The translations under genes were made by a program, and so were the position numbers. This document shows, piece after piece, positions 1,128 to 25,289 of a stretch of 57,779 bases of DNA (position 1 is the stretch's first letter; each line of letters begins with the position of its first letter). The DNA lies in assembly GCA_039920385.1 (NCBI GenBank), contig JBDSDR010000013.1, positions 1 to 57,779 of the forward strand, read 5' to 3'. This DNA is from Candidatus Saccharimonadales bacterium (GTDB lineage: Bacteria > Patescibacteriota > Saccharimonadia > Saccharimonadales > JAUPVS01). Under the pieces are notes generated by a model, which saw nothing but the letters and a program-made list of their open reading frames with translations, made no database searches and had not been told where the DNA came from.

Positions 1128-1642
1128 AAACAATCTTAACCATCAAGAACCAAGACATTAGCCCCGATTCACCAGTACTGGATGATTCTAAGTTTGCAAC
1201 CCGCCAAGCGGCACGGGCTGTATTGTTGGATAGAGATGGTGGTGTCTTTTTACTGAAGGTTGGCTTGCATAACTATCACAAGCTACCGGGTGGTGGTATT
1301 GATGAGGGTGAGGATATTAAAGAAGCCTTGGCTCGAGAACTAATGGAAGAGCTTGGCTGTCAGGGTGAGGTTATAGCCGAACTAGGTACTATTATTCAAC
1401 ACCTAGACGAGTTTGAACTCGTGCAGACATCATACTGCTATTTAGCTAAGCAAACGGGTGAACAAGTTGAGGCAGCCTTGGAAGAAGGCGAAATCGCCGA
1501 GGGCTTACACGAAGTAAAAGCCGGCAGCATCGATGAAGCGATTAAATTGCTTGAAAATGACGTACCAAATAACTACGAAGGCCGGTTTATCCAAAAGCGC
1601 GACTTGGCATTTTTGAAGGCAGCGAAAGAGGCGATGAAATGA
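1124..1642 (+). CDS. NUDIX hydrolase
   Basis: Nudix box GGGIDEGEDIKEALARELMEELG. ATGA overlap with the upstream gene. Confidence 0.8.
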   Translation: MKTILTIKNQDISPDSPVLDDSKFATRQAARAVLLDRDGGVFLLKVGLHNYHKLPGGGIDEGEDIKEALARELMEELGCQGEVIAELGTIIQHLDEFELVQTSYCYLAKQTGEQVEAALEEGEIAEGLHEVKAGSIDEAIKLLENDVPNNYEGRFIQKRDLAFLKAAKEAMK

Positions 1643-1908
1643 AAATCGAGAAAAAAGTTACTCAAAAATGGTTCGAGCAGATTATGAATGGTCAAAAGAC
1701 CTTTGAACTTCGTTTGGCTGATTGGAAGTGTGAACCGGGCGATAGTTTGGTACTGGTAGAGATTGATGAATCACGAAATCCAACCGGCCGTACGTTAGAA
1801 CGACAAGTCGGCACAATCGTTAAAACTAAAGACATCGACTACTTCACTAAGGAAGAAATTGCGGAACATGGATATCAGGTTATTTCGTTATTGGAGGTAT
1901 CCAAATGA
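1639..1908 (+). CDS. ASCH/DUF3850-like small protein
   Basis: 89 aa. KWFEQIMNGQKTFELRLADWKCEPGDSLVLVEID resembles the ASCH/DUF3850 beta-barrel signature (from memory). ATGA overlaps on both sides. Confidence 0.5.
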   Translation: MKIEKKVTQKWFEQIMNGQKTFELRLADWKCEPGDSLVLVEIDESRNPTGRTLERQVGTIVKTKDIDYFTKEEIAEHGYQVISLLEVSK

Positions 1909-4415
1909 AAATCTCCCTCAACGCCATCCGCCAACTGGGCTACGGTAAACTCGTAGACTTGCCGGTTGATGAGCTGGTTAAAAAAATTGGTGCCCAGTTG
2001 GGTGAAGTCGAAGAAGTTATTAATGTCGGTGAAAAGTATGACAAGATTTTGGCCGTTAAAGTGGTTGGTTGCGTTAAGCACCCTAATGCCGACAAGCTCA
2101 GCCTGTGTAAGATTGACGATGGCGGCAAGGCCAAAGGTGTTACGCGCGACGAGCAAGGTTACGTCCAAGTGGTTTGTGGCGCACCGAATGTCCGCGAAGG
2201 TTTAACCGTCGCTTGGCTGCCGCCGGGCAGCATCGTCCCCAGCACCTTCGATAAAGAAAAATTCACACTAGAAGCAAGAGACCTGCGCGGTGAAACCAGT
2301 AATGGCATGTTAGCCAGCCCGGCAGAGCTCGCTATTGGTGACAACCACGATGGCATCCTCGAAATCGACAAGGACGCCAAGCCCGGTACACCATTTGCCG
2401 AGGTCTACGCGTTGGACGACTATATTATTGATGTCGAGAATAAGATGTTTACGCATCGGCCGGATTGTTTTGGGTTGTTGGGTGTGGCCCGTGAGCTGGC
2501 CGGGATTCAGGACCTGCCATTTAAGTCGCCCAACTGGTACATCCGCCCACTCGAAATCGAGAACACTGGCGATCCAGCCGTTAAAGGCCTCGAAGTCACT
2601 AACGAAATTCCTAAACTGGTGCCACGCTACCAAGCCTTAGTGATGAGTGGCGTCAAAGTTGGGCCCAGCCCAATTTGGTTGCAAGTCTTCCTGGCCAAAA
2701 TGGGCGCTAAGTCGATCAACAACATTGTTGATATGACCAACTTTGTGATGCTGACCACCGGCCAGCCATTGCACGCTTTTGACTTCGACAAAGTTGCTGT
2801 AGGTGGCAAAGCCCAGATTGTGGTCCGACATCCTAAAAAGGGCGAGAAGCTCAGTTTATTAGACGGCAAGACAATTGAGCCAAGAAAAGACGCAATTTTA
2901 ATTGCCGACCACAGCAAAGCCATCGCTCTGGGTGGTGTCATGGGTGGCAATAATAGCGAGATCAGTAGCGACACCAAACGAATTATTATTGAATCCGCCA
3001 ACTTTGATATGTATAACATTCGCCGTACCAGTATGGCCCACGGCCTGTTTACCGATGCGGTGACCCGGTTCAATAAAGGCCAAAGCCCGTGGCAAACCGA
3101 AGCGGTGCTGGCCTGGGCGGCCGAGCTAACCAAAGAGTTTAGTCCCAGTGCGCATGTGGTTGGCAAACCAGTCGACAACAAAAAGCATCTGGCTAAAAAC
3201 CCTACGGTTACAGTTGGTGCGACCTTTATTAACGACCGACTGGGCCTGAAATTAAAAGTCCCGCAAATCGCTAAGCGACTCGAAAACGTGGAGTTCCATG
3301 TGGAGCATCACGGCGACCAGCTCGAAGTCACCGCACCATTCTGGCGAACCGATATCGCCATACCAGAAGATATTGTCGAAGAAGTCGGCCGGCTGATCGG
3401 CTACGACCAGTTACCAGTCGACTTACCAAAGCGCGACCTAACGCCAGCTAACCCGGACGAAAAACTGAGCTTCAAAAAACGCTTGCGGGATATCTTAAGT
3501 AAAGCCGGTGCCAACGAAGTCTTAACTTACAGCTTTGTGCATGGCAATTTGCTAACCAAAACCGGCCAAGACCCCAAGCAGGCCTTTGAGCTGAGCAACG
3601 CGCTCAGCCCGGATCTGCAGTATTACCGGATGTCGCTGATGCCGTCGCTACTGGACAAGGTCCATGGCAACATCAAGGCCGGTTATGACCAGTTTGCGTT
3701 GTTTGAGATGAACAAGGTGCACAGCAAGGTGTACCCCAAAGATGAGGATGGCCTTCCGGCCGAATACGACATGCTGGCCCTCGTCTTTGCGGCCAACGAT
3801 AAAGCGGCCAAACAGTACGCCGGCGCGCCCTACTACCAAGCTCGCACCTACCTGGACTACCTTGCCGAACAACTGGGCCTGTCTTTGACATACGCGCCTA
3901 TCGACAAACCAATCGACTACGCCTCGATGCAACCTTACGACCAAAGCCGCAGCGCCATCGTCTCGGTAACCGGAACGGACATTGTCTTGGGTGCGGTTGG
4001 CGAATTCCGAGCAGAAGTATTAGCTAACTTGAAGTTGCCCGCATTTACAGCCGGCTTCGCGGTTGGCTTGGGCGAACTTCAGGAAGCAGCGACTACATCG
4101 GTTAATGGCTATGCGCCACTGGCGAAGTATCCACGGACGAGTCAGGATGTCAGCTTTAAGCTTTTAGGCGACGTGAGCTACGCTGCAGTGGCTTCTGTTA
4201 TGACTGCAGGTTTGGAAGCAGCGGCTGCAGCGCATGGCTACGAATTTTCTTTGGAACCACTGGATATTTACGCACCAGCTGAAGGCTTGAAGCACGTGGC
4301 ATTGCGGGTGACTTTGTGGCACGCGGAACGAACACTTAAGACAAGTGAAGTGAGTGATGTGATGAGCGAGTTGGCCTTGAGGGTAAAGAGTGAGCTGAAG
4401 GGCGAACGGATTTAA
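1905..4415 (+). CDS. pheT: phenylalanine--tRNA ligase beta subunit
   Basis: 836 aa. N-terminal tRNA-binding domain (VKHPNADKLSLCKIDDG...VVCGAPN), B3/4 domain (NNIVDMTNFVMLTTGQPLHAFD), B5 domain and C-terminal anticodon-binding-like domain. Confidence 0.95.
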   Translation: MKISLNAIRQLGYGKLVDLPVDELVKKIGAQLGEVEEVINVGEKYDKILAVKVVGCVKHPNADKLSLCKIDDGGKAKGVTRDEQGYVQVVCGAPNVREGLTVAWLPPGSIVPSTFDKEKFTLEARDLRGETSNGMLASPAELAIGDNHDGILEIDKDAKPGTPFAEVYALDDYIIDVENKMFTHRPDCFGLLGVARELAGIQDLPFKSPNWYIRPLEIENTGDPAVKGLEVTNEIPKLVPRYQALVMSGVKVGPSPIWLQVFLAKMGAKSINNIVDMTNFVMLTTGQPLHAFDFDKVAVGGKAQIVVRHPKKGEKLSLLDGKTIEPRKDAILIADHSKAIALGGVMGGNNSEISSDTKRIIIESANFDMYNIRRTSMAHGLFTDAVTRFNKGQSPWQTEAVLAWAAELTKEFSPSAHVVGKPVDNKKHLAKNPTVTVGATFINDRLGLKLKVPQIAKRLENVEFHVEHHGDQLEVTAPFWRTDIAIPEDIVEEVGRLIGYDQLPVDLPKRDLTPANPDEKLSFKKRLRDILSKAGANEVLTYSFVHGNLLTKTGQDPKQAFELSNALSPDLQYYRMSLMPSLLDKVHGNIKAGYDQFALFEMNKVHSKVYPKDEDGLPAEYDMLALVFAANDKAAKQYAGAPYYQARTYLDYLAEQLGLSLTYAPIDKPIDYASMQPYDQSRSAIVSVTGTDIVLGAVGEFRAEVLANLKLPAFTAGFAVGLGELQEAATTSVNGYAPLAKYPRTSQDVSFKLLGDVSYAAVASVMTAGLEAAAAAHGYEFSLEPLDIYAPAEGLKHVALRVTLWHAERTLKTSEVSDVMSELALRVKSELKGERI

Positions 4416-7400
4416 TGGCAAGCTTATTTGGAAAAAACAAACTTCGTGACATAGCGACAAAACTACAGACTTCTGACCTTGAAGATAAAATTGCTATCGT
4501 TAATACTTGGCACAATGATTACCACAACGGGAGCCTGAAAGCAGACAAAGAAACCTCTCGTGAGCAAGCCTACAACCAAGACTTTTTCATTAGGATACTT
4601 GGCTACAAAGAAAAACCCGCTGTTCCATATAGCCTTGAGCCAAAAGCTACAACTGATAAAGGTCAACTTCCTGACGCTGTACTTAGCCACACTGACGTTA
4701 CACAAGACATCAAGAACATCTCGGCAGTTGTTGAGCTAAAAGGTGCAAGCGTTGAGCTAGACCGACCACAACGTCGTGAGGGCAATATGAGTCCTGTTCA
4801 ACAGGGCTTCAAATACAAAACCCAGTATCGTAACTGCCCGTTTGTAGTTGTGAGCAACTTCTGGGAGTTCCGACTCTACCACGATAATCAACTGGATTAC
4901 GAGCTATGGACGCTTGATGACCTTGTAGACCCTAGCGATGACTACCTTAAGTTCAAAACTTTCTACACGCTACTGCACAGCAATAACCTCACTACGCCCA
5001 AAGGTGCAAGCAAGACAGAGGGTTGGCTTAGCGATATTCGCTTTGAGCAAGAAGAAATCGGTAAGAAGTTTTACAAGGTATATCGTGAAGCACGACTAGA
5101 ACTGCTACGAGATATATACCGACACAACGAAGATGTGCGGTCAGATATTAACATGGGTATTGAGAAAGCCCAGAAGATTATTGACCGTATAGTGTTTGCC
5201 TGTTTCGCAGAAGACAGAGGTTTACTGCCAGACGATACATTGAAGCGTGTCATTCAAGCAGCAGACAACTCAACGTTCGGTGGCTCACTATGGTCAACAT
5301 TCAAAGCTTTCTTTGAAGCTATTGACGTTGGTAGCACCAAGCTAGAAATACCAGATGGCTATAACGGTGGACTCTTTGCGCATGACGCTGAACTAAACGG
5401 CTTTAAGATTAGCGATGGCTCATTACTAAAAGTTGCCAACATCAGCGACTACAACTTCGTTGAGGATTTAAGCGTCAACATCTTAGGGCATATCTTTGAA
5501 CAGTCCATTAGTGATTTAGAGGAAATCAAGAGCAAGGTTGAGGAAAGTAAAAGTCTAGAATCTATCCAACAATCACGGCGCAAAAAAGACGGCATATTCT
5601 ATACGCCCGATTACATAGTTCGTTACATCGTAGATAACTCTTTGGGTGCTTACCTGCGAGAAGAAGAAGAACGAGTAAAGACACAGTTTAGGCTAAAGGG
5701 CGACATCACTGATAAAAGTTACGTAAAACGTGAGCAACAGGCTTACGGCAAATATCAAGAATTCCTACAAAACGTAAAAGTAGTAGACCCCGCTTGTGGT
5801 TCAGGAGCATTCTTGGTTTATGTTTTTGACTACCTATTAGCAGAGAACAAACGTGTAGCGAGTATTCTAGGCAATAACTTATTTAGTAGTGAAAACTACA
5901 TAAAAGATATTCTAAAGAACAATATTTACGGCGTAGATCTGAATGAGGAGTCTGTTGAAATTACTAAGCTATCGCTTTGGCTTAAGTCTGCTCAAAAAGG
6001 TAAGAAACTTACATCGCTAGATAACAATATAAAGTGTGGCAATAGTCTGCTTGTAGATTGGAAAGATACCTTCCCCGAAGTCTTCAAGAACGGTGGTTTT
6101 GATGTTGTTGTAATGAACCCTCCATACGTTAAAGAATCAGCAGGAAAGCAAATATTTGCAGAATTACATAACAAGTCTTTGTATCAAGGGAAGATGGATT
6201 TATGGTATTTCTTCGGCGGACTTGCCCTAGATATTGTGAAAGCAAATACTGGCATAATAGGATTAATTGCCCCAAATAATTGGGTTACCAATGACGGAGC
6301 AAGTAAGTTTAGGAACAGGATAGTTGCAGACGCCCACATAGATAAGTTCATTGATTTCAGTAACTTCAAAGTTTTTGACCAAGCTGGTATACAAACAATG
6401 ATTGCTGTTATCAGACGAAAGAACGAGCAACCAAAGTATGAATTAGACTACTCAAGGATTGCAGATAATAGTGTAGGCGTTGAAAGTATAAAAGACTTTC
6501 TGAATGCAATTACTGACCCACGCTTCGTTTACTTCAAGTCTAATTTTAACAGGTCAAGACTAGTAAATAACATATTTTCATTTGCGAATGCACACGACGA
6601 GAAATTGCTTTCAAAAATCGCAAGTAAATCTAACCTGCAACTTGAAGCGAGTGAAATTTTTTCGGGTATTGATATCGGGCAAGACTATGTGAATAAAAAA
6701 TCTCAAGAAAAGTTAGGTGATAGTGCGAAAATTGGTGATGGAGTATTTAACCTTTCGCAACAAGAATACAATAAGCTAAATCCAAATTATGCCGAGAAAG
6801 AATTAATCCAGCCTTTCTACACAACAAAACAAATAAACAGGTATCTGGCAAATAAGCAAAACACAAGTTGGGTAATCTATACAGATTCAAAGTTTAAGAA
6901 TCCTGATAATATCCAGCCTTATAAAAACGTAAAGAATCATTTAGATAAATACCAATCAATTATAACGTCTGCAAATAAGCCATACGGGCTACATCGCTCA
7001 AGAGATAAAGAAGTATTCTTGGGAGAAAAAATACTATCTATACGTAAATGCTCTCGTCCTTCATTTGCATATGTTAATTTTGATGCATACGTGAATAGAA
7101 CTTTTAATATCATCAAGACTGACAGGTTAAATTTACGCTACCTAAGTGCAATATTAAACTCACGTCTTGTTGCATATTGGTTACTTAAAAGAGGCAAACT
7201 CCAAGGTGAGCTGTATCAAGTTGACGTTAACCCAATTAGGTCTATACCAATTGCAATTGCTGATGACCAAGAGCAATTAGCAAATCTGGCGAAGAAAATC
7301 AGTGAACTAAATTTTAAACTCTCTGAACGTGATAATAGATTTCAGCAACTACTTAAGTCAGAATTAGGACTAAGCAAAAGGTCTGTAAGGCTAAGTCATT

Positions 7401-7621
7401 GGTGGAATTTAGATTTCACTGAATTTGTACTATCTTTAGGAGCAAATCTTTCATTAATTCAAAAAGACGAACTCTTGCAGCTATACGATAAATACCGTAC
7501 GGAACTGGTAAACATAGGTTCAGAGATTCAAAAAGTTGATAATGAAATTGACCAAATTGTCTACAGATTATACGGACTAAACAAGGAAGAAATAGATTCA
7601 GTCGAGCGTCATACGAAATGA
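4415..7621 (+). CDS. single-polypeptide type IIG (MmeI-like/type IIL) restriction endonuclease / N6-adenine DNA methyltransferase
   Basis: 1068 aa. N-terminal PD-ExK-like motifs (PDAVL with D at 4673-4675; VVELK with E 4733-4735 and K 4739-4741; QQGFKYK). Helical spacer (FACFAEDRGLLP). Gamma-class MTase motif order: X (GIFYTPDYIV), I (VVDPACGSGAFLV, 5786-5806), IV (VVMNPPYV, NPPY at 6115-6126). C-terminal TaqI_C-like TRD (LSAILNSRLVAYWLL). Confidence 0.8.
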   Translation: MASLFGKNKLRDIATKLQTSDLEDKIAIVNTWHNDYHNGSLKADKETSREQAYNQDFFIRILGYKEKPAVPYSLEPKATTDKGQLPDAVLSHTDVTQDIKNISAVVELKGASVELDRPQRREGNMSPVQQGFKYKTQYRNCPFVVVSNFWEFRLYHDNQLDYELWTLDDLVDPSDDYLKFKTFYTLLHSNNLTTPKGASKTEGWLSDIRFEQEEIGKKFYKVYREARLELLRDIYRHNEDVRSDINMGIEKAQKIIDRIVFACFAEDRGLLPDDTLKRVIQAADNSTFGGSLWSTFKAFFEAIDVGSTKLEIPDGYNGGLFAHDAELNGFKISDGSLLKVANISDYNFVEDLSVNILGHIFEQSISDLEEIKSKVEESKSLESIQQSRRKKDGIFYTPDYIVRYIVDNSLGAYLREEEERVKTQFRLKGDITDKSYVKREQQAYGKYQEFLQNVKVVDPACGSGAFLVYVFDYLLAENKRVASILGNNLFSSENYIKDILKNNIYGVDLNEESVEITKLSLWLKSAQKGKKLTSLDNNIKCGNSLLVDWKDTFPEVFKNGGFDVVVMNPPYVKESAGKQIFAELHNKSLYQGKMDLWYFFGGLALDIVKANTGIIGLIAPNNWVTNDGASKFRNRIVADAHIDKFIDFSNFKVFDQAGIQTMIAVIRRKNEQPKYELDYSRIADNSVGVESIKDFLNAITDPRFVYFKSNFNRSRLVNNIFSFANAHDEKLLSKIASKSNLQLEASEIFSGIDIGQDYVNKKSQEKLGDSAKIGDGVFNLSQQEYNKLNPNYAEKELIQPFYTTKQINRYLANKQNTSWVIYTDSKFKNPDNIQPYKNVKNHLDKYQSIITSANKPYGLHRSRDKEVFLGEKILSIRKCSRPSFAYVNFDAYVNRTFNIIKTDRLNLRYLSAILNSRLVAYWLLKRGKLQGELYQVDVNPIRSIPIAIADDQEQLANLAKKISELNFKLSERDNRFQQLLKSELGLSKRSVRLSHWWNLDFTEFVLSLGANLSLIQKDELLQLYDKYRTELVNIGSEIQKVDNEIDQIVYRLYGLNKEEIDSVERHTK

Positions 7622-8349
7622 GCAAAACCGATAAACAACTCGGTAATAGTAAATCAGACTGGTCTGCCATAGTAGCCAAGGCAAGTTTGGGTGCAGTCCC
7701 TATTGCAGGCAGTTTCTTGTCAGAAATTGTTTCGGCTTTGATTCCAAATCAACGAATTGAACGAATCGCTAAGTTTGCCAATGAACTCAATACTAAGTTA
7801 GAAAAATTGCCAGACGAAGTAATAAAGAAGTTGAGGGATAATGAGCTGTTTATCGATTTAGTAGAAGATAGTTTTTTCAGAACTGTCCGAGCCAGTTCAG
7901 AAGAAAGGCGGCGATATATATTGAATATCGTCCAAAACGGTATCTCTGAAGATGATGCAACAATAAATAATGCAAAGTATCTATTGGGCTTGTTGTCTGA
8001 GATAAATGATAATGAGGTAATTTGGCTACGCTACTTCCACGAGCGGACATTAAGCGACAAGAGCAAATTCCAATCTTTACACAAAAATATTCTTTCACCA
8101 GTACAGGTCGTATTGGGGTCTCACAAAGAAGAGCGACAACGTGGTGCAATCCAAGAAAGTTACAAGGAGCACCTTTTGCGACTTGGACTTATACGAGACG
8201 ATATAAAAATGAACAAAGACCTAGGTGTACCTGAATACGATTCATTTACTAACAAGCCAAAGGTTTCATATTCAGAGGCTACTACACTAGGTAATATGTT
8301 ATTGGAGAAAATTGGTTTGATTGAAACAAAGGTTGAATTAGGAAGATGA
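7618..8349 (+). CDS. hypothetical protein; N-terminus resembles Abi-alpha/DUF4393 (tentative)
   Basis: 243 aa. ATGA overlap with the R-M gene stop (7618-7621). N-terminal segment ASLGAVPIAGSFLSEIVSALIPNQRIERIAKFANELNTKLEKLPDEV resembles the Abi_alpha N-terminal pattern as I remember it. The rest is helical with no catalytic motif. Confidence 0.45.
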   Translation: MSKTDKQLGNSKSDWSAIVAKASLGAVPIAGSFLSEIVSALIPNQRIERIAKFANELNTKLEKLPDEVIKKLRDNELFIDLVEDSFFRTVRASSEERRRYILNIVQNGISEDDATINNAKYLLGLLSEINDNEVIWLRYFHERTLSDKSKFQSLHKNILSPVQVVLGSHKEERQRGAIQESYKEHLLRLGLIRDDIKMNKDLGVPEYDSFTNKPKVSYSEATTLGNMLLEKIGLIETKVELGR

Positions 8350-8870
8350 AACTAACCGAATATCACACAGCAGTGCTTAACTTCTTAGCCCAAAACAAGT
8401 ACGGAAAACGTCGAGAAGATAAAATATACCAAGAGCTCACTGTAGGACCATTAAATCGCCAGAATATTAAAACGATTCTGCGTGACCTGGAACAGGCTGG
8501 CTTAATAGTACCGATTACTATTCCGGAACAAGAAATACAGTTTATTGCCGAAATGTCTGAGACCCCTGTGACAAATGTGGGATACAGGATAACGCAGCTA
8601 GGGAAAGACGCAAGCACTAGCGTACGCAGCAATGTTACAAACAATACGTATGCAAATATAAGCAACTCTGCCATAGCTCATAACTCGCCTCACGCCACTC
8701 AATCAATCAATATTGAAGAGCTATCCGAAGACTTGCGTCAGAAATACCAAGAGCTACAAGACGCAGTAGCAAGAAAAGATAGTTCGGCTATGAAGAAAGC
8801 CTTTGGATATATAGCTGATAAGTCTGTAGATGTAGCAATAGCAATTATCACAAGAAATTTACTGCCATAG
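8346..8870 (+). CDS. hypothetical protein with N-terminal winged-helix (MarR/PadR-like) fold
   Basis: 174 aa. ATGA overlap at 8346-8349. EYHTAVLNFLAQ...EDKIYQEL...RQNIKTILRDLEQAGLIV...VGYRITQLGKD fits a helix-turn-helix plus wing. A low-complexity linker is followed by a C-terminal helix. Confidence 0.45.
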   Translation: MKLTEYHTAVLNFLAQNKYGKRREDKIYQELTVGPLNRQNIKTILRDLEQAGLIVPITIPEQEIQFIAEMSETPVTNVGYRITQLGKDASTSVRSNVTNNTYANISNSAIAHNSPHATQSINIEELSEDLRQKYQELQDAVARKDSSAMKKAFGYIADKSVDVAIAIITRNLLP

Positions 8871-8884
8871 GTTTTCAAAATAAT

Positions 8885-10357
8885 ATGTATCTTTCAAAAT
8901 CAGACTTCCTTAAATACCAGTGCTGCCCTAGCTACCTGTGGTTATGGAAATATAAAAAAGAAGTAGTGCCAGTTGATGATGAAGAAGAAATCAACCGTAG
9001 GTTAGAGCAAGGTAACGAAGTAGAACGCTACGCTCGTGGCTTATTTCCAAATGCTGTCCTAGTAGATTCACACGGCAAGAAAGCTCGGAACGAAACAGAG
9101 CAGCTAGTAAGTGATGGTGTTAAGACTATCTTCCAAGCCACCGTTTATACAGATAAAGAATTACTAGCAATGGCTGACATCGTTGAATTTGATGAAGCCA
9201 CACAGTCATGGACTTTATACGAAGTAAAATCTACCAACTCTGTTAAGAAAGAACATATATACGACCTTGCATTTCAGTGTGTAGCGTTTGAGGACGCTGG
9301 TTATAAGATTGGTAAAGTTGGCGTTATACACTTAGATAAAACTTACATACGTAAAACTGTAGTTGAGCCGAATCATTTACTGACGCAAACAGATGTGACC
9401 GAAAAAGTAGAAAAAGTACTGCCAGTCATTCGTGAGCAAGCGTATGACGCAGTTGAAATGCTAAAGCAAACGGACGAGCCAACTAAGTGTAGCTGTAGGC
9501 TTAAAACTAAGTCAGGACATTGCCCTACATTTAACTACCTGAACCCAGACATACCCGAATACTCTGTATTTAACATTTCTAGGATTGGTGGCAAGAATCT
9601 AGCAGTTCTCGTAGACGGCGATATTCATAACGTCCACGATGTACCAGAAGATATAAAGCTATCTATCGGACAACAAAACCAAGTCAAGGTTGCCAAGAGT
9701 AAAGAGCCTATTATTAACAAGCCAGCTATTAAAGAGCTGTTGAGCGAACTTGAATACCCATTATATTTTCTTGACTACGAAACTGTTTCATCTGCACTAC
9801 CAATGTTTAACGGCTGTACTCCATTCCAACAAATACCATTCCAGTATTCTCTACACGTTTTAAGAGAGCCTAACGGTGAGTTAGAGCACTACGACTATCT
9901 TGGGCGTGATAGCGTCAAAGCACCCATGCCAGAGCTACTAGCAAGCCTACAGAGTCACTTGGGCGATACAGGAAGTGTAATTGCTTGGTACAAGGTATTT
10001 GAAAAGGGTCGCAATACAGAAATGGCTAACTCGTATCCTGAATATGCCAAGTTTCTAAACGGTGTTAATAACAGAGTTTTTGACCTTATGGACGTGTTCA
10101 GTAAACAGCACTACGTACACCATGACTTTAAGGGCAGTAGTTCAATTAAGTACGTATTGCCAGTCCTCGTGCCAGAGTTCTCGTATAAGGACATGGACAT
10201 ACAGAACGGCTTAGTGGCTTCAATACGATGGTATGATGCTGTAATGGGTGTTGCAGATGAAGTGCAAACAAATAAGACCTTTGACGACTTATTAAAATAC
10301 TGTTGCTTAGACACTCTTGCTATGGTCAAGATTTACGAGTATTTGAAAAACATATGA
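8885..10357 (+). CDS. DUF2779-like protein: N-terminal Cas4/RecB-like PD-(D/E)XK nuclease with Cys cluster fused to a C-terminal DEDD-like (RNase H fold) exonuclease domain
   Basis: 490 aa. SKSDFLKYQCCPSYLW, ADIVEFD...LYEVKS (D...ExK), YDLAFQ. Cys cluster: C13/C14 plus KCSCRLKTKSGHC. C-terminal half has YFLDYET (DxE) and LKYCCLDTLAM (Yx3D). Confidence 0.6.
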   Translation: MYLSKSDFLKYQCCPSYLWLWKYKKEVVPVDDEEEINRRLEQGNEVERYARGLFPNAVLVDSHGKKARNETEQLVSDGVKTIFQATVYTDKELLAMADIVEFDEATQSWTLYEVKSTNSVKKEHIYDLAFQCVAFEDAGYKIGKVGVIHLDKTYIRKTVVEPNHLLTQTDVTEKVEKVLPVIREQAYDAVEMLKQTDEPTKCSCRLKTKSGHCPTFNYLNPDIPEYSVFNISRIGGKNLAVLVDGDIHNVHDVPEDIKLSIGQQNQVKVAKSKEPIINKPAIKELLSELEYPLYFLDYETVSSALPMFNGCTPFQQIPFQYSLHVLREPNGELEHYDYLGRDSVKAPMPELLASLQSHLGDTGSVIAWYKVFEKGRNTEMANSYPEYAKFLNGVNNRVFDLMDVFSKQHYVHHDFKGSSSIKYVLPVLVPEFSYKDMDIQNGLVASIRWYDAVMGVADEVQTNKTFDDLLKYCCLDTLAMVKIYEYLKNI

Positions 10358-10458
10358 ATGTAACTAGAGCAGGAATAGAGTGGATAGAAATTGATATATT
10401 CTCGCATGGAGTTGATGTAAAAAATCTTTAAGTTCATAAAAAGTGACATAATATAGCT

Positions 10459-11412
10459 ATGGTTAACAGAAATAGAATAAGTAATGAACTAAGCCGCCGT
10501 TATCAGGAGGTGGTAAGGCTGGCCGGTAAACGAGCCTTCGATGATAAACAAGCGGAAAGATTCCTGACAGCAGTTGCGCATTATTTAAATTATGCAAAGA
10601 ACAATAAGCTTACCAGGGCTGCGATTGATAGTCTCTCAACTGATAAAGACATACAGAGAAAGGATAATGAACTTTGTAAAAAAGCAGATAGCATTATTAA
10701 TCAAATGAGAGCAGACAGAGATGAGCTAATAAAAGAGGCGAAGAAAAAAGGCGTAGATGTGGATGCTTACAAGTTTCAAGTAGGGATGGGGCGAATTACT
10801 GGCGAGCAAGAGTTCTCCTTTTATCTGAATCACCTAAACAGCTACCTAGATTTACCATCAGACCAGCAAGGTATTGGTGAGCTACCTGGCAACATACTTA
10901 ATTTAGTCCAACTTATAAACGAATTAGTTAATGGCTTTGGCGAAACTAAAAAATTCAAAGAACTAAAAGGTAACTATCTTAAAAAAAGAAATGCGTTTGA
11001 GCAAGAACTAAAAGTCCACGGAGTTCATTTAGACTATGTTAGGTTCGAAGATTATAAACATCTTGATGTAGCATGGAAAGAAATATATCAACAAGGTACT
11101 AGTGACGAGCTGCTGCTTTTTCATCTAGAGTATGGTCACTTGTTTGAGAAAAATGTTTCGTACTCTGGTGGTCAGCAATCTGATGCCGACAGATTCATTG
11201 ACGACTATACTACCTACACGAGTAGATTCCACAACCATCTAATTGACCATATTGAGAATGTACCCGTACATGAAGAGTTTGCGATTTGGTTTGTTGAACA
11301 TTTTGGTCCAACATTTATCTCAGTATTAATTATTTTCTTTATACTACTGATGGTTAACTGGCTAACCGGTGGGGGTATGACATACCAAGAAGTTAAAGAA
11401 CTTATACCCTAG
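10459..11412 (+). CDS. hypothetical helical protein with a single C-terminal transmembrane helix (tail-anchored)
   Basis: 317 aa, no recognisable domain. Hydrophobic stretch FGPTFISVLIIFFILLMVNWL about 20 aa from the C-terminus. It has its own -10-like box at 10444-10452. Confidence 0.5.
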   Translation: MVNRNRISNELSRRYQEVVRLAGKRAFDDKQAERFLTAVAHYLNYAKNNKLTRAAIDSLSTDKDIQRKDNELCKKADSIINQMRADRDELIKEAKKKGVDVDAYKFQVGMGRITGEQEFSFYLNHLNSYLDLPSDQQGIGELPGNILNLVQLINELVNGFGETKKFKELKGNYLKKRNAFEQELKVHGVHLDYVRFEDYKHLDVAWKEIYQQGTSDELLLFHLEYGHLFEKNVSYSGGQQSDADRFIDDYTTYTSRFHNHLIDHIENVPVHEEFAIWFVEHFGPTFISVLIIFFILLMVNWLTGGGMTYQEVKELIP

Positions 11413-11481
11413 AATTGTTAACATCTTTCTCCAGAAGCTCCATCGATTCGATATCGTTCCTAGGTGTTCTACAGAAAATAG

Positions 11482-11829
11482 CTACAGCTGCGTATACTTC
11501 CTGTGATTATCCTTCGCCTTCTCGACAGGGTACTTGGCGGCGTTCTTCTTCATCTTCTTGTTCAAAGCTTCGGCCAGATTGATATCAAAATCGTGAGCCA
11601 TCAGTAGGACCCAATAAAAGACGTCGGCCAGTTCGTCGGCCACATCAGATTTGTTGCTGCCCATGTGCGCCGCAATCTCTTGGTCGGTCTTCCACTGAAA
11701 GTGCTCCATCAGCTCGGCTGCTTCGAGCACCAGCGACAAAGCCACATCCTTAGGATTATGAAACTGCTGCCAATTCCGTTCATCCCTAAACTCAACGATT
11801 TGCTTCTGGAGCTTTTCGAGGTCAGTCAT
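11482..11829 (-). CDS. MazG-like nucleotide pyrophosphohydrolase (small single-domain type)
   Basis: 115 aa. FRDERNWQQFHNPKDVALSLVLEAAELMEHFQWK...ELADVFYWVLLMA matches the MazG/YpjD-type EExxE/D helices. Confidence 0.8.
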   Translation of the reverse strand: MTDLEKLQKQIVEFRDERNWQQFHNPKDVALSLVLEAAELMEHFQWKTDQEIAAHMGSNKSDVADELADVFYWVLLMAHDFDINLAEALNKKMKKNAAKYPVEKAKDNHRKYTQL

Positions 11830-24728: not shown

Positions 24729-25289
24729 TTACTTTGACTGGACTACTGTATAGGCAATGATTGTGCTGTCGTTGTCGGTTTGTTGGAAGAAGATGTTAAC
24801 AGTCAGATTATCTTTAGTGGCCGAGAATTTACCGCTATTGTTTTCGAGCGTGTATTTGAATTGACCCCAACCAGCCTCTGTAAAATCATCTTCAATACTT
24901 CGCTTAACTTCAACGAAATTGTCTTTTGTTGTAACAACCGCTTCCCAGCCGGTTTTATTATCGAAGTCGAGTTTACCGCTGCTAAGTAATGTATCTGGGT
25001 AGACCGGTACACTAATCGGGAAGTCCTTAGCTAGTTGCTGATTATTGCCGGCTGATAACTGGTTGCCGTTTTTGTCAATAACCTCAAAACCGTTACTGTC
25101 GGCAGTAAACCGAACATCGTTAGTTCGAATAACTGCCCCTAAAATAATTCCCAATATAGTCAGGACAATTATCGGCAGAACCACGAATACAAAAAAGGCT
25201 AAACCCGAAAGTATTATGATAACTTTCTTATCGGTCTCGGTCATACCGGTAATGGGCTTTTTTGATTCAGGCATAGATCCTCTCGTCAT
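24729..25289 (-). CDS. hypothetical membrane-anchored protein (paralog of 25289..25882)
   Basis: 186 aa. N-terminal TM followed by an extracytoplasmic domain. Shares DKNGNxxSAG...DFPxxVPxY...GK...W...V with its neighbour. Confidence 0.55.
   Translation of the reverse strand: MTRGSMPESKKPITGMTETDKKVIIILSGLAFFVFVVLPIIVLTILGIILGAVIRTNDVRFTADSNGFEVIDKNGNQLSAGNNQQLAKDFPISVPVYPDTLLSSGKLDFDNKTGWEAVVTTKDNFVEVKRSIEDDFTEAGWGQFKYTLENNSGKFSATKDNLTVNIFFQQTDNDSTIIAYTVVQSK

What the first reader, a model, noticed from the sequence alone, without database searches (positions are those of the whole stretch)
4415..11481. AT-rich island of about 7 kb fused onto the pheT stop codon: a type IIG R-M enzyme plus four uncharacterised genes, a candidate composite defence island
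Composition drops sharply across this stretch.
- Inside the island, my hand counts of 60-nt lines give 22/60 G+C at 6781 and 17/60 at 10921. They reach at most 28/60 at 9001.
- In the flanks I count 36/60 at both 3301 (pheT) and 12301.

The first island gene starts on the last base of the pheT stop (TAATG at 4413-4417). Genes 1-2 and 2-3 are joined by ATGA overlaps at 7618 and 8346. Gene 4 follows after 14 nt, and gene 5 has its own promoter-like box.

Only gene 1 (the R-M enzyme) has a recognised defence role. The other four are a protein with an Abi-alpha-like N-terminus, a winged-helix protein, a DUF2779 dual nuclease and a tail-anchored helical protein. No named defence system that I know of contains these. 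I found no integrase, transposase or flanking direct repeats, so how the island was acquired is unclear. The tight coupling suggests one functional unit rather than a random collection of genes.
Basis: partly seen in the sequence, partly recalled or inferred. Interest (0 to 1): 0.8.

Follow-up and report, generated by a model that had tools for sequence, protein, structure and literature searches.

The report
Restriction operon capped by DUF2779 nuclease
An AT-rich, horizontally acquired stretch right after the pheT gene of a Saccharibacteria genome holds a restriction-modification operon built on a recurring plan (restriction enzyme, then swappable accessory genes, then a DUF2779 double nuclease), which points to an undescribed partnership between restriction enzymes and this nuclease in tiny-genome bacteria.

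Summary
Window 4415-11481 is the only strongly AT-rich block in the 57.8-kb window: its genes have GC z-scores of -2.6 to -3.9. The five ORFs, the TAATG and ATGA overlaps and the 14-nt gap are exactly as described.

The organism is a Candidatus Saccharibacteria bacterium. None of 65 related pheT loci carries these genes. The three closest relatives carry different AT-rich restriction or defence cargo at the same pheT 3' junction, so this is a clade-specific hotspot.

The five genes are not one unit:
- **Genes 1-4 (4415-10357)** form an operon whose frame recurs elsewhere. All eight independent loci with close DUF2779 homologues have that gene as the last gene of a restriction-modification operon: six type IIG, one type III, one type I.
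- **The type IIG enzymes** are 84-93% identical over residues 1-540 but 25-31% identical in the specificity domain, apart from one pair at 52%. The genes between the enzyme and DUF2779 differ from locus to locus.
- **Gene 2** (Abi-alpha-like) and **gene 3** (winged helix with an AbiTi-like tail) are swappable cargo.
- **Gene 5** is inherited separately.

I infer that the type IIG enzyme restricts incoming DNA and the DUF2779 Cas4-like/DEDD nuclease processes the resulting ends. This is untested.

The parts
1905..4415 (+). pheT (phenylalanyl-tRNA synthetase beta chain, 836 aa). It is the conserved upstream anchor of the insertion hotspot, and its TAA stop shares one base with the gene 1 ATG.
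   Evidence: Pfam domains B3_4, tRNA_synthFbeta, B5, tRNA_bind and FDX-ACB. The closest relatives are 75-76% identical. GC is 0.522.
4415..7621 (+). Gene 1: a MmeI-family type IIG restriction-modification enzyme (1068 aa) with an N-terminal PD-ExK nuclease, a helical spacer, a gamma-class N6-adenine methyltransferase and a C-terminal TaqI_C-type specificity domain.
   Evidence: PADLOC REase_MTase_IIG PDLC03609 at 1.7e-105 over residues 31-1067. Pfam Eco57I 6.9e-38, N6_Mtase, MmeI_Mtase and TaqI_C, with MmeI_N at 2.2e-5, below its cut-off. The motifs PDAVL...VVELKG, DPACGSGAFL and NPPY are conserved in six homologues.
4415..6050 (+). Conserved 5' arm of the module: the nuclease, spacer and methyltransferase core of gene 1.
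   Evidence: blastn gives 78-83% DNA identity to L066, L156, L157 and L159. It starts at 4415 or 4425 and ends at 6045-6052 in all four. Protein identity is 84-93% over residues 1-540.
6051..8884 (+). Variable centre of the module: the specificity half of gene 1 plus the accessory cassette (genes 2 and 3). This is the most AT-rich part, with GC 0.34-0.39.
   Evidence: The specificity half is 25-31% identical between modules, with one pair at 52%. The middle genes differ in every locus. GC profile.
7618..8349 (+). Gene 2: a 243-aa, mostly helical protein of a widespread stand-alone family distantly related to Abi-alpha (PF14337). It overlaps gene 1 by ATGA.
   Evidence: Pfam Abi_alpha at 2.3e-5 and 24.9 bits, below the cut-off of 29. 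It has 68 homologues, 12 with a precomputed PF14337 hit. Model pLDDT is 81.6, with no PDB or BFVD fold match. Its neighbours elsewhere are heterogeneous.
8346..8870 (+). Gene 3: a 174-aa protein with an N-terminal PadR/HxlR-like winged helix, a flexible linker and a conserved C-terminal three-helix bundle with distant AbiTi similarity. It overlaps gene 2 by ATGA.
   Evidence: Model pLDDT 85.3. Foldseek against PadR, HxlR and MarR structures gives probability 1.0, TM-score 0.6-0.7 normalised by target and E about 1e-3. The family profile hits PadR at 0.003. Seven of 39 family members hit PADLOC AbiTi, best 4.5e-5, while the window protein itself scores 0.018. The family has 68 representative clusters.
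8885..10357 (+). Gene 4: a DUF2779 protein (490 aa) that fuses a Cas4-like PD-(D/E)xK nuclease to a DEDD-type 3'-5' exonuclease. It forms the conserved 3' arm and cap of the module.
   Evidence: Pfam DUF2779 at 9.4e-42 and PADLOC Cas4 at 3.4e-7. D98, E113-V-K115, C14, C213, D297-x-E299, D400 and Y472-x3-D476 are at least 95% conserved in 45 homologues. It is 61-89% identical to homologues that end restriction-modification operons in 8 of 8 loci. DNA similarity is confined to 8878-10358.
10459..11412 (+). Gene 5: a 317-aa protein with a C-terminal membrane anchor, from a small family specific to Saccharibacteria and Patescibacteria. It is inherited separately from genes 1-4 and is probably not part of the operon's function.
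   Evidence: It has no hit in Pfam, PADLOC, NCBIfam or PHROGs. It has only 10 homologues. They occur without genes 1-4, in L150-152, L153 and L154/155. DNA similarity is confined to 10439-11410.
11482..11829 (-). MazG-like pyrophosphohydrolase (115 aa), convergent with gene 5. It is the downstream anchor of the hotspot, with core-like composition.
   Evidence: Pfam MazG-like at 9.2e-19. Homologues lie about 3.6 kb downstream of pheT in L001 and L002. GC is 0.497.

Best explanation
Window 4415-11481 is horizontally acquired cargo in a clade-specific insertion hotspot between pheT and a MazG-like gene of a Saccharibacteria genome. It has two parts.

**Part A (4415-10357)** is one operon and one instance of a recurring module in Saccharibacteria and Patescibacteria. 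The module runs: restriction-modification enzyme, then 1-2 swappable accessory genes, then a DUF2779 dual nuclease.
- Here the restriction enzyme is a MmeI-family type IIG protein. Its catalytic core is shared with sister modules at about 90% amino-acid identity. Its specificity domain is unrelated to theirs.
- The accessory slot holds an Abi-alpha-like gene and a winged-helix/AbiTi-like gene.

**Part B** is gene 5, a tail-anchored membrane protein of unknown role that travels independently.

**How it most likely works**
- *Shown:* gene order, intact catalytic motifs, and recurrence of the frame.
- *Inferred from the MmeI family:* the type IIG enzyme methylates its own site in host DNA and cuts unmodified incoming DNA a fixed distance from the site.
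- *Inferred, untested:* the DUF2779 protein acts on the resulting DNA ends. Its Cas4/RecB-like domain would work from one strand polarity and its DEDD exonuclease from the other. It would take the post-restriction end-processing role that RecBCD or AddAB plays elsewhere. In an organism that cannot make nucleotides, it may also feed salvage.
- *Inferred from the stand-alone distribution of its family:* gene 2 is an independent second-line abortive-infection-type gene that is simply hosted in the slot. Gene 3, by its fold, is a DNA-binding regulator or sensor.
- *Inferred from the 1-nt overlap:* because the block abuts the pheT stop with no spacer, it is probably transcribed by read-through from pheT.
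For: **Foreign composition.**

**Hotspot.**
- None of 65 pheT loci carries genes 1-5.
- Only 3 of 52 evaluable relatives show a GC drop after pheT, and they are the three closest at 75-76% PheT identity.
- Their cargo differs. L001 has an N6/N4 methyltransferase plus unknowns. L002 has DUF3800, a C5 methyltransferase and a type II endonuclease. L006 has a 772-aa AAA_13 ATPase.

**Recurring frame.** All place a 61-89% identical DUF2779 gene last in a same-strand, tightly spaced restriction-modification operon.

| Locus | Gene order |
|---|---|
| Window | type IIG, gene 2, gene 3, DUF2779 |
| L066 | type IIG, gene 2-like, HARE-HTH/PD-(D/E)xK, DUF2779 |
| L156 | type IIG, DUF4238, DUF2779 |
| L157/158 | type IIG, HARE-HTH, DUF2779 |
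| L159/160 | type IIG, unknown 262 aa, DUF2779 |
| L164 | type IIG, unknown 192 aa, DUF2779 |
| L161 | type III Mod, Res, DUF2779 |
| L162/163 | HsdM, HsdS, HsdR, AAA_21 ATPase, DUF2779 |

**Base rate.** Restriction-like genes cover about 0.3% of 1.13 Mb of related DNA, using a limited query panel.

**Conserved arms, variable centre.**

**Both DUF2779 active sites are conserved.**. The family is interpreted in the literature as a Cas4-like plus DEDDh fusion (PMC13621843; PMC3985635).

**Distant DUF2779 genes on plasmids sit among defence-type genes.** Neighbours include QatABCD, dGTPase, PLD, WYL, DEAD helicases and NERD.

**Precedents.** Solo-Cas4 next to restriction-modification genes in small-genome lineages, and UvrD-Cas4 fusions with type III systems (PMC5704561). 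Nucleotide scavenging has been proposed for restriction systems of Candidate Phyla Radiation bacteria (bioRxiv 10.64898/2026.07.13.738296).

**Gene 5 is separate.**
Against: - No experiment or interaction evidence links DUF2779 to the restriction enzyme. Adjacency alone cannot separate functional coupling from co-transfer.
- Outside this subfamily, DUF2779 sits beside many partners that are not restriction systems. A Mycoplasma homologue is quasi-essential. The nuclease clearly can act without a restriction enzyme.
- The sample is eight loci, not a census.
- RecBCD or AddAB absence in this organism could not be checked from a 57.8-kb window.
- Gene 5 recurs near restriction cargo in a second context (L150-152) and is also AT-rich, so a loose defence role is not excluded.
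- Read-through transcription from pheT is not shown. The promoter and terminator scan was uninformative.
Confidence: 0.55

Rival explanations
1. Loose accumulation. The island is a pile of independent single-gene or small defence elements that landed in the same hotspot. DUF2779 is a stand-alone defence or repair nuclease that merely hitch-hikes at the 3' end of restriction operons. There is no functional coupling between any of the genes.
For: - The gene 2 family is almost always solo, with heterogeneous neighbours.
- The gene 3 profile has no hit beside any gene 2 homologue.
- Gene 5 is separate.
- DUF2779 on plasmids sits next to many different partners.
- Defence genes are known to cluster without interacting (general knowledge of defence islands).
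Against: - Eight of eight close DUF2779 homologues are the terminal, same-strand gene of a restriction operon of three different types. Spacing ranges from a 1-nt overlap to a 39-nt gap.
- The type IIG to DUF2779 block moves as a unit whose similarity stops exactly at its outer gene borders.
- The background frequency of restriction genes is low.
Confidence: 0.3
2. One reading: all five genes form one integrated composite defence system.
For: Genes 1-4 are tightly coupled (ATGA overlaps and a 14-nt gap). All five genes share low GC. Gene 5 also lies near restriction cargo in L150-152.
Against: - Genes 2, 3 and 5 do not co-occur with each other or with genes 1 and 4 elsewhere, apart from gene 2 in L066.
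- Sister modules replace genes 2 and 3 with unrelated genes.
- Gene 5 homologues occur in housekeeping contexts.
- Gene 5 is separated from gene 4 by 101 nt, and its DNA similarity block is separate.
Confidence: 0.07
3. DUF2779 is a housekeeping DNA-repair gene of these bacteria, and restriction systems insert preferentially upstream of it. On this view DUF2779 is the hotspot anchor rather than part of the cargo.
For: DUF2779 is highly conserved, at 85-89% identity between genomes. A Mycoplasma homologue is quasi-essential. Cas4-family solo genes are reported to evolve mainly vertically.
Against: - The gene downstream of DUF2779 differs in almost every locus: gene 5/MazG here, DUF8370/8371 in L066, a GHKL ATPase in L156 and L157, NUDIX in L159, others in L161-L164.
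- In the window, DUF2779 is AT-rich like the rest of the island.
- It is absent from the pheT region of all 65 relatives.
- DNA similarity ends at its stop codon.
Confidence: 0.05

Closest known systems
MmeI-family (type IIG/IIL) restriction-modification enzymes
   Same: Gene 1 is a single polypeptide with an N-terminal PD-ExK nuclease, a helical spacer, a gamma-class N6-adenine methyltransferase (DPACGSGAFL and NPPY motifs) and a C-terminal specificity domain. It matches a PADLOC type IIG model over its full length. The specificity domain is modular and is swapped between close relatives. That matches the known engineerable modularity of this family (PMC2731914 and PMC2582602, listed).
   Different: Described MmeI-type systems are minimal one-gene systems. 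Here the enzyme is the first gene of a 4-gene operon that always ends with a DUF2779 nuclease. The recognition sequence and cut site are unknown.
Restriction-modification loci with embedded accessory defence genes (prrC in the EcoprrI type Ic locus; 'rlo' genes inside Campylobacter type I loci). Cited from my own knowledge, not tested here.
   Same: An unrelated Abi-type or nuclease gene sits inside a restriction operon in a slot whose content varies between strains. The type I version here (L162) carries an AAA_21/Ppl-like ATPase in that slot.
   Different: Here the slot is bounded by a type IIG, type III or type I enzyme on one side and always by DUF2779 on the other. No anticodon nuclease was detected.
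Cas4-family nucleases linked to restriction-modification systems (solo-Cas4 in DPANN and Candidate Phyla Radiation lineages; UvrD-Cas4 fusions with type III Mod/Res), Hudaiberdiev et al. 2017, PMC5704561
   Same: A Cas4-like PD-(D/E)xK nuclease is encoded next to restriction genes in small-genome, CRISPR-poor lineages, and an uncharacterised defence role has been suggested for it.
   Different: Gene 4 belongs to PF11074, a Cas4-like domain fused to a DEDD exonuclease. It is not in the Cas4 families analysed in that paper. The constant 3'-terminal position, the variable cassette and the conserved arms are not described in the papers I could search.
Abi-alpha (EF2833, DUF4393/PF14337) of Enterococcus faecalis prophage 6, PMC6356687
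   Same: Gene 2 and several of its homologues hit PF14337. Both are single-gene, roughly 240-270 aa proteins with no other recognisable domain.
   Different: Gene 2 scores below the Pfam cut-off. It is chromosomal inside a restriction operon rather than in a prophage. The premature-lysis phenotype is untested.
RecBCD/AddAB degradation of restricted DNA (established knowledge, not tested here)
   Same: In the proposed mechanism, the DUF2779 nuclease would do what RecBCD or AddAB does to restriction fragments. The Cas4-like domain is homologous to the RecB and AddB nuclease domains.
   Different: Gene 4 has no helicase domain. The activity is unproven.

Membership tests
Type IIG (MmeI-like) restriction-modification enzyme | Nuclease, methyltransferase and specificity domain in one polypeptide, matching a type IIG profile over its full length | tested here: met
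   PADLOC PDLC03609 at 1.7e-105, residues 31-1067 against model positions 27-1065 of 1066. Pfam Eco57I, N6_Mtase, MmeI_Mtase and TaqI_C all above their cut-offs.
Type IIG (MmeI-like) restriction-modification enzyme | N-terminal PD-ExK catalytic motif and methyltransferase motifs I and IV intact | tested here: met
   PDAVL...VVELKG, DPACGSGAFL and NPPY are invariant or near-invariant in six homologues. The Pfam MmeI_N hit itself is below its cut-off (25.3 against 27 bits).
Type IIG (MmeI-like) restriction-modification enzyme | Site-specific methylation and cleavage at a fixed distance from the site | not testable with these tools
   Needs expression plus a cleavage assay or methylome sequencing.
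BREX (PglX) or DISARM (DrmMI) | Full-length match to PglX or DrmMI, together with the other genes of the system | tested here: not met
   Only partial methyltransferase-core hits: NCBIfam BREX_1_MTaseX at 142 bits against a cut-off of 500. No other BREX or DISARM gene is in the island.
Abi-alpha (PF14337) | Pfam match above the gathering score | tested here: inconclusive
   Gene 2 scores 24.9 bits against a cut-off of 29, E 2.3e-5, over residues 48-219. Twelve of 68 homologues carry a precomputed PF14337 hit. There is no PADLOC hit.
Abi-alpha (PF14337) | Abortive-infection phenotype (premature lysis on infection) | not testable with these tools
   Phenotype described in PMC6356687.
AbiT (AbiTi) | Match to the AbiTi profile, and a partner AbiTii gene | tested here: inconclusive
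   Gene 3 itself scores E 0.018. Seven of 39 family members hit AbiTi, best 4.5e-5. No AbiTii-like hit for any neighbouring gene.
DUF2779 (PF11074) Cas4-like/DEDD nuclease | Pfam match above the cut-off, with both catalytic centres present | tested here: met
   142.7 bits against a cut-off of 23.3. D98, E113-x-K115, D297-x-E299, D400 and Y472-x3-D476 are at least 95% conserved. PADLOC Cas4 at 3.4e-7 for the N-terminal domain.
Named multi-gene anti-phage system (PADLOC-DB v2) | Two or more island genes matching components of one named system | tested here: not met
   Only gene 1 matches with confidence. Genes 2 and 5 have no hit, and genes 3 and 4 have only weak or partial hits.
Genomic island in an insertion hotspot | Atypical composition, and different content at the same junction in relatives | tested here: met
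   Composition. Different cargo after pheT in L001, L002 and L006, and no cargo signal in 49 more distant relatives.
Genomic island in an insertion hotspot | Integrase or recombinase, a tRNA target, or flanking direct repeats | tested here: not met
   No tRNA gene, no convincing repeats and no recombinase homologue in the window. Large serine recombinases lie near the module in L066, L156, L158 and L164.

The most novel reading that the evidence does not exclude
In Saccharibacteria and Patescibacteria, restriction-modification systems of types I, IIG and III have recruited a dedicated partner, the DUF2779 Cas4-like/DEDD dual exonuclease. Together they form a two-step 'restrict, then process or degrade' system that stands in for RecBCD/AddAB and may feed nucleotide salvage. 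The highly conserved outer genes also act as homology arms, allowing wholesale exchange of the specificity domain together with accessory Abi-type genes. That would be a cassette-exchange mechanism for diversifying defence.
Probability: 0.3. Interest if true: 0.75.

Novelty: new variant of a known kind. Interest (0 to 1): 0.58.

Why it matters
Saccharibacteria and other Candidate Phyla Radiation bacteria rarely have CRISPR, have tiny genomes and cannot make nucleotides. How they resist phages and acquire DNA building blocks is an open question.

A restriction operon that always ends in a conserved double nuclease would give the large, uncharacterised DUF2779 family its first testable role. The family has more than 6000 close relatives in metagenomes and a quasi-essential member in the minimal Mycoplasma cell. 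It would also connect restriction to end processing or scavenging.

The conserved-arm, variable-centre layout offers a natural library of new type IIG specificities on a near-identical catalytic chassis, and a slot enriched for candidate new anti-phage genes.

Tried and rejected
- **Integrated phage or plasmid fragment.** Viral-contig scans with genes 3, 4 and 5 found nothing. The phage collection has no DUF2779. Gene 1 has only 36%-identical partial homologues in phages. The gene 2 family is in 3 of 2.9 million viral contigs. Rejected.\n- **Flanking attachment-site repeats or a tRNA target.** None found.\n- **Genes 2 and 3 as a conserved two-gene Abi pair.** A gene 3 family profile hits no ORF next to any of 85 gene 2 homologues. 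In L066, gene 2 is followed by an unrelated HARE-HTH/PD-(D/E)xK gene. Rejected.\n- **Gene 5 related to the DUF8370/8371 gene that follows DUF2779 in L066.** No similarity.\n- **Gene 5 and MazG as conserved synteny.** L153 has a MazG-like gene after its gene 5 homologue, but it is only 31% identical and in the other orientation. Left as inconclusive.\n- **Fold assignment for gene 2.** No significant match in PDB or BFVD. Only a weak winged-helix-like resemblance at the C-terminus.\n- **Profile-versus-PDB search for gene 5.** Nothing found.\n- **Promoter and terminator consensus scan.** No more sites than in shuffled sequence, so operon boundaries could not be read from it.\n- **Shared flanks between sister modules.** None beyond the outer genes, except a GHKL ATPase gene shared by L156 and L157.

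Full report
**1.

GC in 500-nt windows falls from 0.49-0.56 inside pheT to 0.34-0.42 between about 5500 and 11250. It recovers to 0.45-0.50 beyond 11250.

Genes 1-5 have GC of 0.386, 0.383, 0.410, 0.405 and 0.378. The other 48 long ORFs of the window average 0.472 with sd 0.024, so the z-scores are -2.6 to -3.9. All twelve lowest-GC 2-kb windows of the 57.8-kb window lie in this stretch. The tetranucleotide distance from the rest of the window peaks at 0.45 against a background of about 0.17.

| Gene | Coordinates |
|---|---|
| pheT | 1905-4415 |
| gene 1 | 4415-7621 |
| gene 2 | 7618-8349 |
| gene 3 | 8346-8870 |
| gene 4 | 8885-10357 |
| gene 5 | 10459-11412 |
| MazG-like gene (minus strand) | 11482-11829 |

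TAATG lies at 4413-4417 and ATGA at 7618 and 8346. The gap before gene 4 is 14 nt. Four of the five hand counts are exact. The count at 6781 is 20/60, not 22/60.

**2. What the genes are**

- **Gene 1** matches a PADLOC type IIG restriction-methyltransferase model from end to end at 1.7e-105. It has Pfam Eco57I, N6_Mtase, MmeI_Mtase and TaqI_C domains. The nuclease motif (PDAVL...VVELKG) and methyltransferase motifs I (DPACGSGAFL) and IV (NPPY) are intact and conserved. Hits to BREX PglX and DISARM DrmMI cover only the methyltransferase core and are far below the curated cut-offs.
- **Gene 2** gives a sub-threshold Abi_alpha hit: 24.9 bits against a cut-off of 29, over residues 48-219. An AlphaFold model built on 49 homologues is confident (pLDDT 81.6). 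It is mostly helical with a small C-terminal beta element. It has no significant match in PDB or BFVD.
- **Gene 3** has no family hit of its own. A model built on 39 family members (pLDDT 85.3) shows an N-terminal winged helix that superposes on PadR, HxlR and MarR regulators (Foldseek probability 1.0, TM-score 0.6-0.7 normalised by target), then a flexible linker, then a three-helix C-terminal bundle. The C-terminal half is the conserved part of the family. Seven of 39 members hit the PADLOC AbiTi model, best 4.5e-5.
- **Gene 4** is a DUF2779 protein at 9.4e-42, with a Cas4-like N-terminal domain. D98, E113-x-K115, D297-x-E299, D400 and Y472-x3-D476 are at least 95% conserved in 45 homologues, so both nuclease centres look active. 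The literature reads this family as a Cas4-like plus DEDDh exonuclease fusion of unknown function (PMC13621843; PMC3985635).
- **Gene 5** has no hit in any library. It has only 10 homologues, all about 317-325 aa, with a conserved hydrophobic C-terminal segment.

**3. The organism and the junction**

PheT places the window in Candidatus Saccharibacteria. The best GTDB representatives are 75-76% identical.

A tblastn of all window proteins against 65 related pheT loci with 10-kb flanks finds none of genes 1-5. Only 3 of 52 loci with enough downstream sequence show a GC drop after pheT, and they are exactly the three closest relatives. Each carries different cargo starting within 7-130 nt of the pheT stop:

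| Locus | Cargo after pheT | Downstream |
|---|---|---|
| L001 | two unknowns, an N6/N4 DNA methyltransferase, one more unknown | truncated MazG-like gene |
| L002 | an unknown, DUF3800, a C5 methyltransferase, a type II endonuclease | MazG-like gene, 73% identical |
| L006 | a single 772-aa AAA_13 ATPase | not determined |

The pheT-MazG junction is therefore a hotspot for AT-rich restriction and defence cargo that is specific to this clade. I found no tRNA gene, no flanking repeats and no recombinase in the window.

**4. Do the five genes belong together?**

*Gene 2.* The family has 68 homologues down to 33% identity. I retrieved 80 metagenome loci plus three assembled contexts. Only L066 has homologues of genes 1 and 4 nearby. 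Two loci representing one context have a distant type IIG-like gene 2.7 kb away. The rest have none. The 87 immediate neighbours are heterogeneous. They include restriction endonucleases, a type I S subunit, HepT, TIR/ThsB, DUF4238, integrases and transposases, and also aconitase, glyS and sugar epimerases. There is no recurrent partner. Gene 2 is a stand-alone gene that is often, but not always, in variable regions.

*Gene 3.* A profile of its family hits nothing in any of the 168 loci then held except the window itself.

*Gene 5.* Homologues lie in three other contexts:
- beside an integrase/MgsA_C pair and a type III system (L150-152);
- beside the same integrase/MgsA_C pair and a 31%-identical MazG-like gene (L153);
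- among housekeeping genes such as PGK, TIM and UvrD (L154/155).

None of these has genes 1-4.

*Gene 4.* The picture is different. I looked up eight close homologues (61-89% identity), chosen for long contigs and not for context. With the window that gives eight independent contexts. In every one, DUF2779 is the last gene of a same-strand, tightly spaced restriction-modification operon:
- window: type IIG, gene 2, gene 3, DUF2779;
- L066: type IIG, gene 2-like, HARE-HTH/PD-(D/E)xK, DUF2779;
- L156: type IIG, DUF4238, DUF2779;
- L157/158: type IIG, HARE-HTH/PD-(D/E)xK, DUF2779;
- L159/160: type IIG, unknown 262 aa, DUF2779;
- L164: type IIG, unknown 192 aa, DUF2779;
- L161: type III Mod, Res, DUF2779;
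- L162/163: HsdM, HsdS, HsdR, a 932-aa AAA_21/Ppl-like ATPase, DUF2779.

As a rough base rate, homologues of my restriction query panel cover 0.3% of 1.13 Mb of related Saccharibacteria DNA.

**5. Conserved arms and a variable centre**

The six type IIG enzymes are 84-93% identical over residues 1-540. They are only 25-31% identical over residues 600-1068, with one pair at 52%. Each therefore has its own specificity domain.

At the DNA level:
- Similarity between the window and four sister modules starts at the gene 1 ATG (4415 or 4425) and stops at 6045-6052.
- It resumes at 8878-8885, the start of gene 4, and stops at 10335-10358, the gene 4 stop.
- Gene 2 is similar only to L066.
- Gene 5 (10439-11410) is similar only to L150-153.

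Sister modules share no flanks with each other, except a GHKL ATPase gene downstream in L156 and L157.

The unit that recurs is exactly gene 1 through gene 4. Its interior, meaning the specificity domain plus the accessory genes, is replaced wholesale. The AT-poorest part of the island coincides with that interior. Large serine recombinases lie 2-4 kb upstream of the module in L066, L156, L158 and L164. None is present in the window.

**6. The wider DUF2779 family**

More than 6000 proteins match gene 4 at E <= 1e-30. There is no phage hit.

Thirty plasmids carry 27-37% identical homologues. In ten inspected contexts the neighbours are typical defence-island vocabulary: QatABCD and a dGTPase; PAPS-reductase-family proteins; DEAD helicases; PLD nucleases; WYL proteins; NERD; PD-(D/E)xK nucleases; macro domains; transposases and recombinases. 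They are not restriction systems specifically. One homologue is fused to a DUF2726 endonuclease-like domain.

The family is therefore broadly defence-associated. The constant 3'-terminal position in restriction operons is a property of the Patescibacteria subfamily.

**7. Mechanism**

*Shown:* gene order, tight spacing, intact catalytic residues, recurrence of the frame, and replacement of the interior.

*Inferred from the MmeI family:* gene 1 methylates its site in host DNA and cleaves unmodified DNA at a fixed distance from the site.

*Inferred, untested:* DUF2779 acts on the ends so produced. It would either degrade restricted DNA or process self-inflicted breaks, which is the role RecBCD or AddAB plays in other bacteria. 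The Cas4-like domain is homologous to the RecB and AddB nuclease domains. A recent preprint argues that restriction systems in Candidate Phyla Radiation bacteria serve nucleotide scavenging as well as defence. A built-in double exonuclease would fit that.

Genes 2 and 3 are best read as independent accessory cargo. Gene 2 would be an Abi-alpha-like effector. Gene 3 would be a winged-helix regulator or sensor with an AbiTi-like tail. Gene 5 is left without a role.

The 1-nt overlap with the pheT stop suggests read-through transcription from pheT. The consensus promoter and terminator scan was uninformative.

**8. Comparison with what is known**

- Gene 1 is a member of the type IIG/MmeI-like class by every sequence criterion I could test.
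- The layout resembles restriction loci with embedded accessory genes, such as prrC in EcoprrI and the rlo genes in Campylobacter (my own knowledge).
- Cas4-family nucleases next to restriction genes have been noted for solo-Cas4 in DPANN and Candidate Phyla Radiation lineages, and for UvrD-Cas4 fusions with type III systems (PMC5704561).
- I found no paper that mentions DUF2779 in connection with restriction-modification. Only seven papers in the library contain the term, and none of the three I read makes the connection.
- PADLOC-DB v2 contains no system that includes genes 2-5.

I therefore rate this as a new variant of a known kind: a restriction-modification operon with a dedicated Cas4-like/DEDD nuclease cap and an exchangeable centre.

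**9. Verdict**

The stretch is an acquired island in a hotspot with a defence character. It is not a five-gene unit.
- The interesting object is the recurring plan of restriction enzyme, variable slot and DUF2779.
- The main uncertainty is whether DUF2779 is functionally coupled to restriction (my estimate is about 0.55) or merely co-travels with it (about 0.3). Eight loci are not a census, and nothing has been tested experimentally.

Noticed in passing
window 1639-1908 (+) and 243-1642: An 89-aa DUF3850/ASCH gene directly upstream of pheT, overlapping its start by ATGA, is also low in GC (0.40, z = -3.0). pheS is not upstream of pheT; an aldo/keto reductase and a NUDIX hydrolase are there instead.
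   Followed up: partly
window 24729-25289 (-): A 186-aa ORF with GC 0.412 (z = -2.5), the only other clearly AT-rich gene in the window.
   Followed up: no
window 11482-11829 (-): The MazG-like gene has an unusually high third-position GC of 0.68 (z = +4.1). Its L001 counterpart covers only residues 58-111 and looks truncated.
   Followed up: no
L156 11349-13352 (-); L157 10689-12695 (-); L158 11501-13507 (-): A 667/668-aa GHKL-type ATPase (HATPase_c_3), 92% identical between loci, lies convergent immediately after DUF2779. L157 also has a type III-like methyltransferase plus ResIII pair 4 kb further on.
   Followed up: partly
L067 9001-9690: A Pasteurella multocida homologue of gene 2 (41% identical by tblastn) sits alone between glyQ and glyS. 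This is another insertion inside an aminoacyl-tRNA synthetase operon.
   Followed up: no
window 4415-6500 (gene 1, residues 17-695): The N-terminal two-thirds of gene 1 has 35-36% identical homologues in about 130-kb Clostridioides difficile phages and in a Synechococcus phage. It also matches PHROG 31645 ('unknown function') at 4e-121.
   Followed up: partly
protein P0185: A 623-aa protein, 62% identical to gene 4, is fused to MTES_1575 and DUF2726 (endonuclease-like) domains.
   Followed up: no
L164 about 509-669 and about 10267-10426: A 162-nt direct repeat (72% identity) brackets a roughly 9.7-kb segment that holds Abi_C, a serine recombinase, DUF5655, the type IIG enzyme, a 192-aa gene and DUF2779. 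These may be element ends.
   Followed up: no
L154 12984-16310: The UvrD helicase near a gene 5 homologue carries an intein (Intein_splicing/Hint hits).
   Followed up: no
L150 62-9261: Next to the closest gene 5 homologue (81% identical) lie a tyrosine integrase and MgsA_C pair, a type III Mod/Res pair and a large serine recombinase. This is another restriction cargo beside gene 5.
   Followed up: partly
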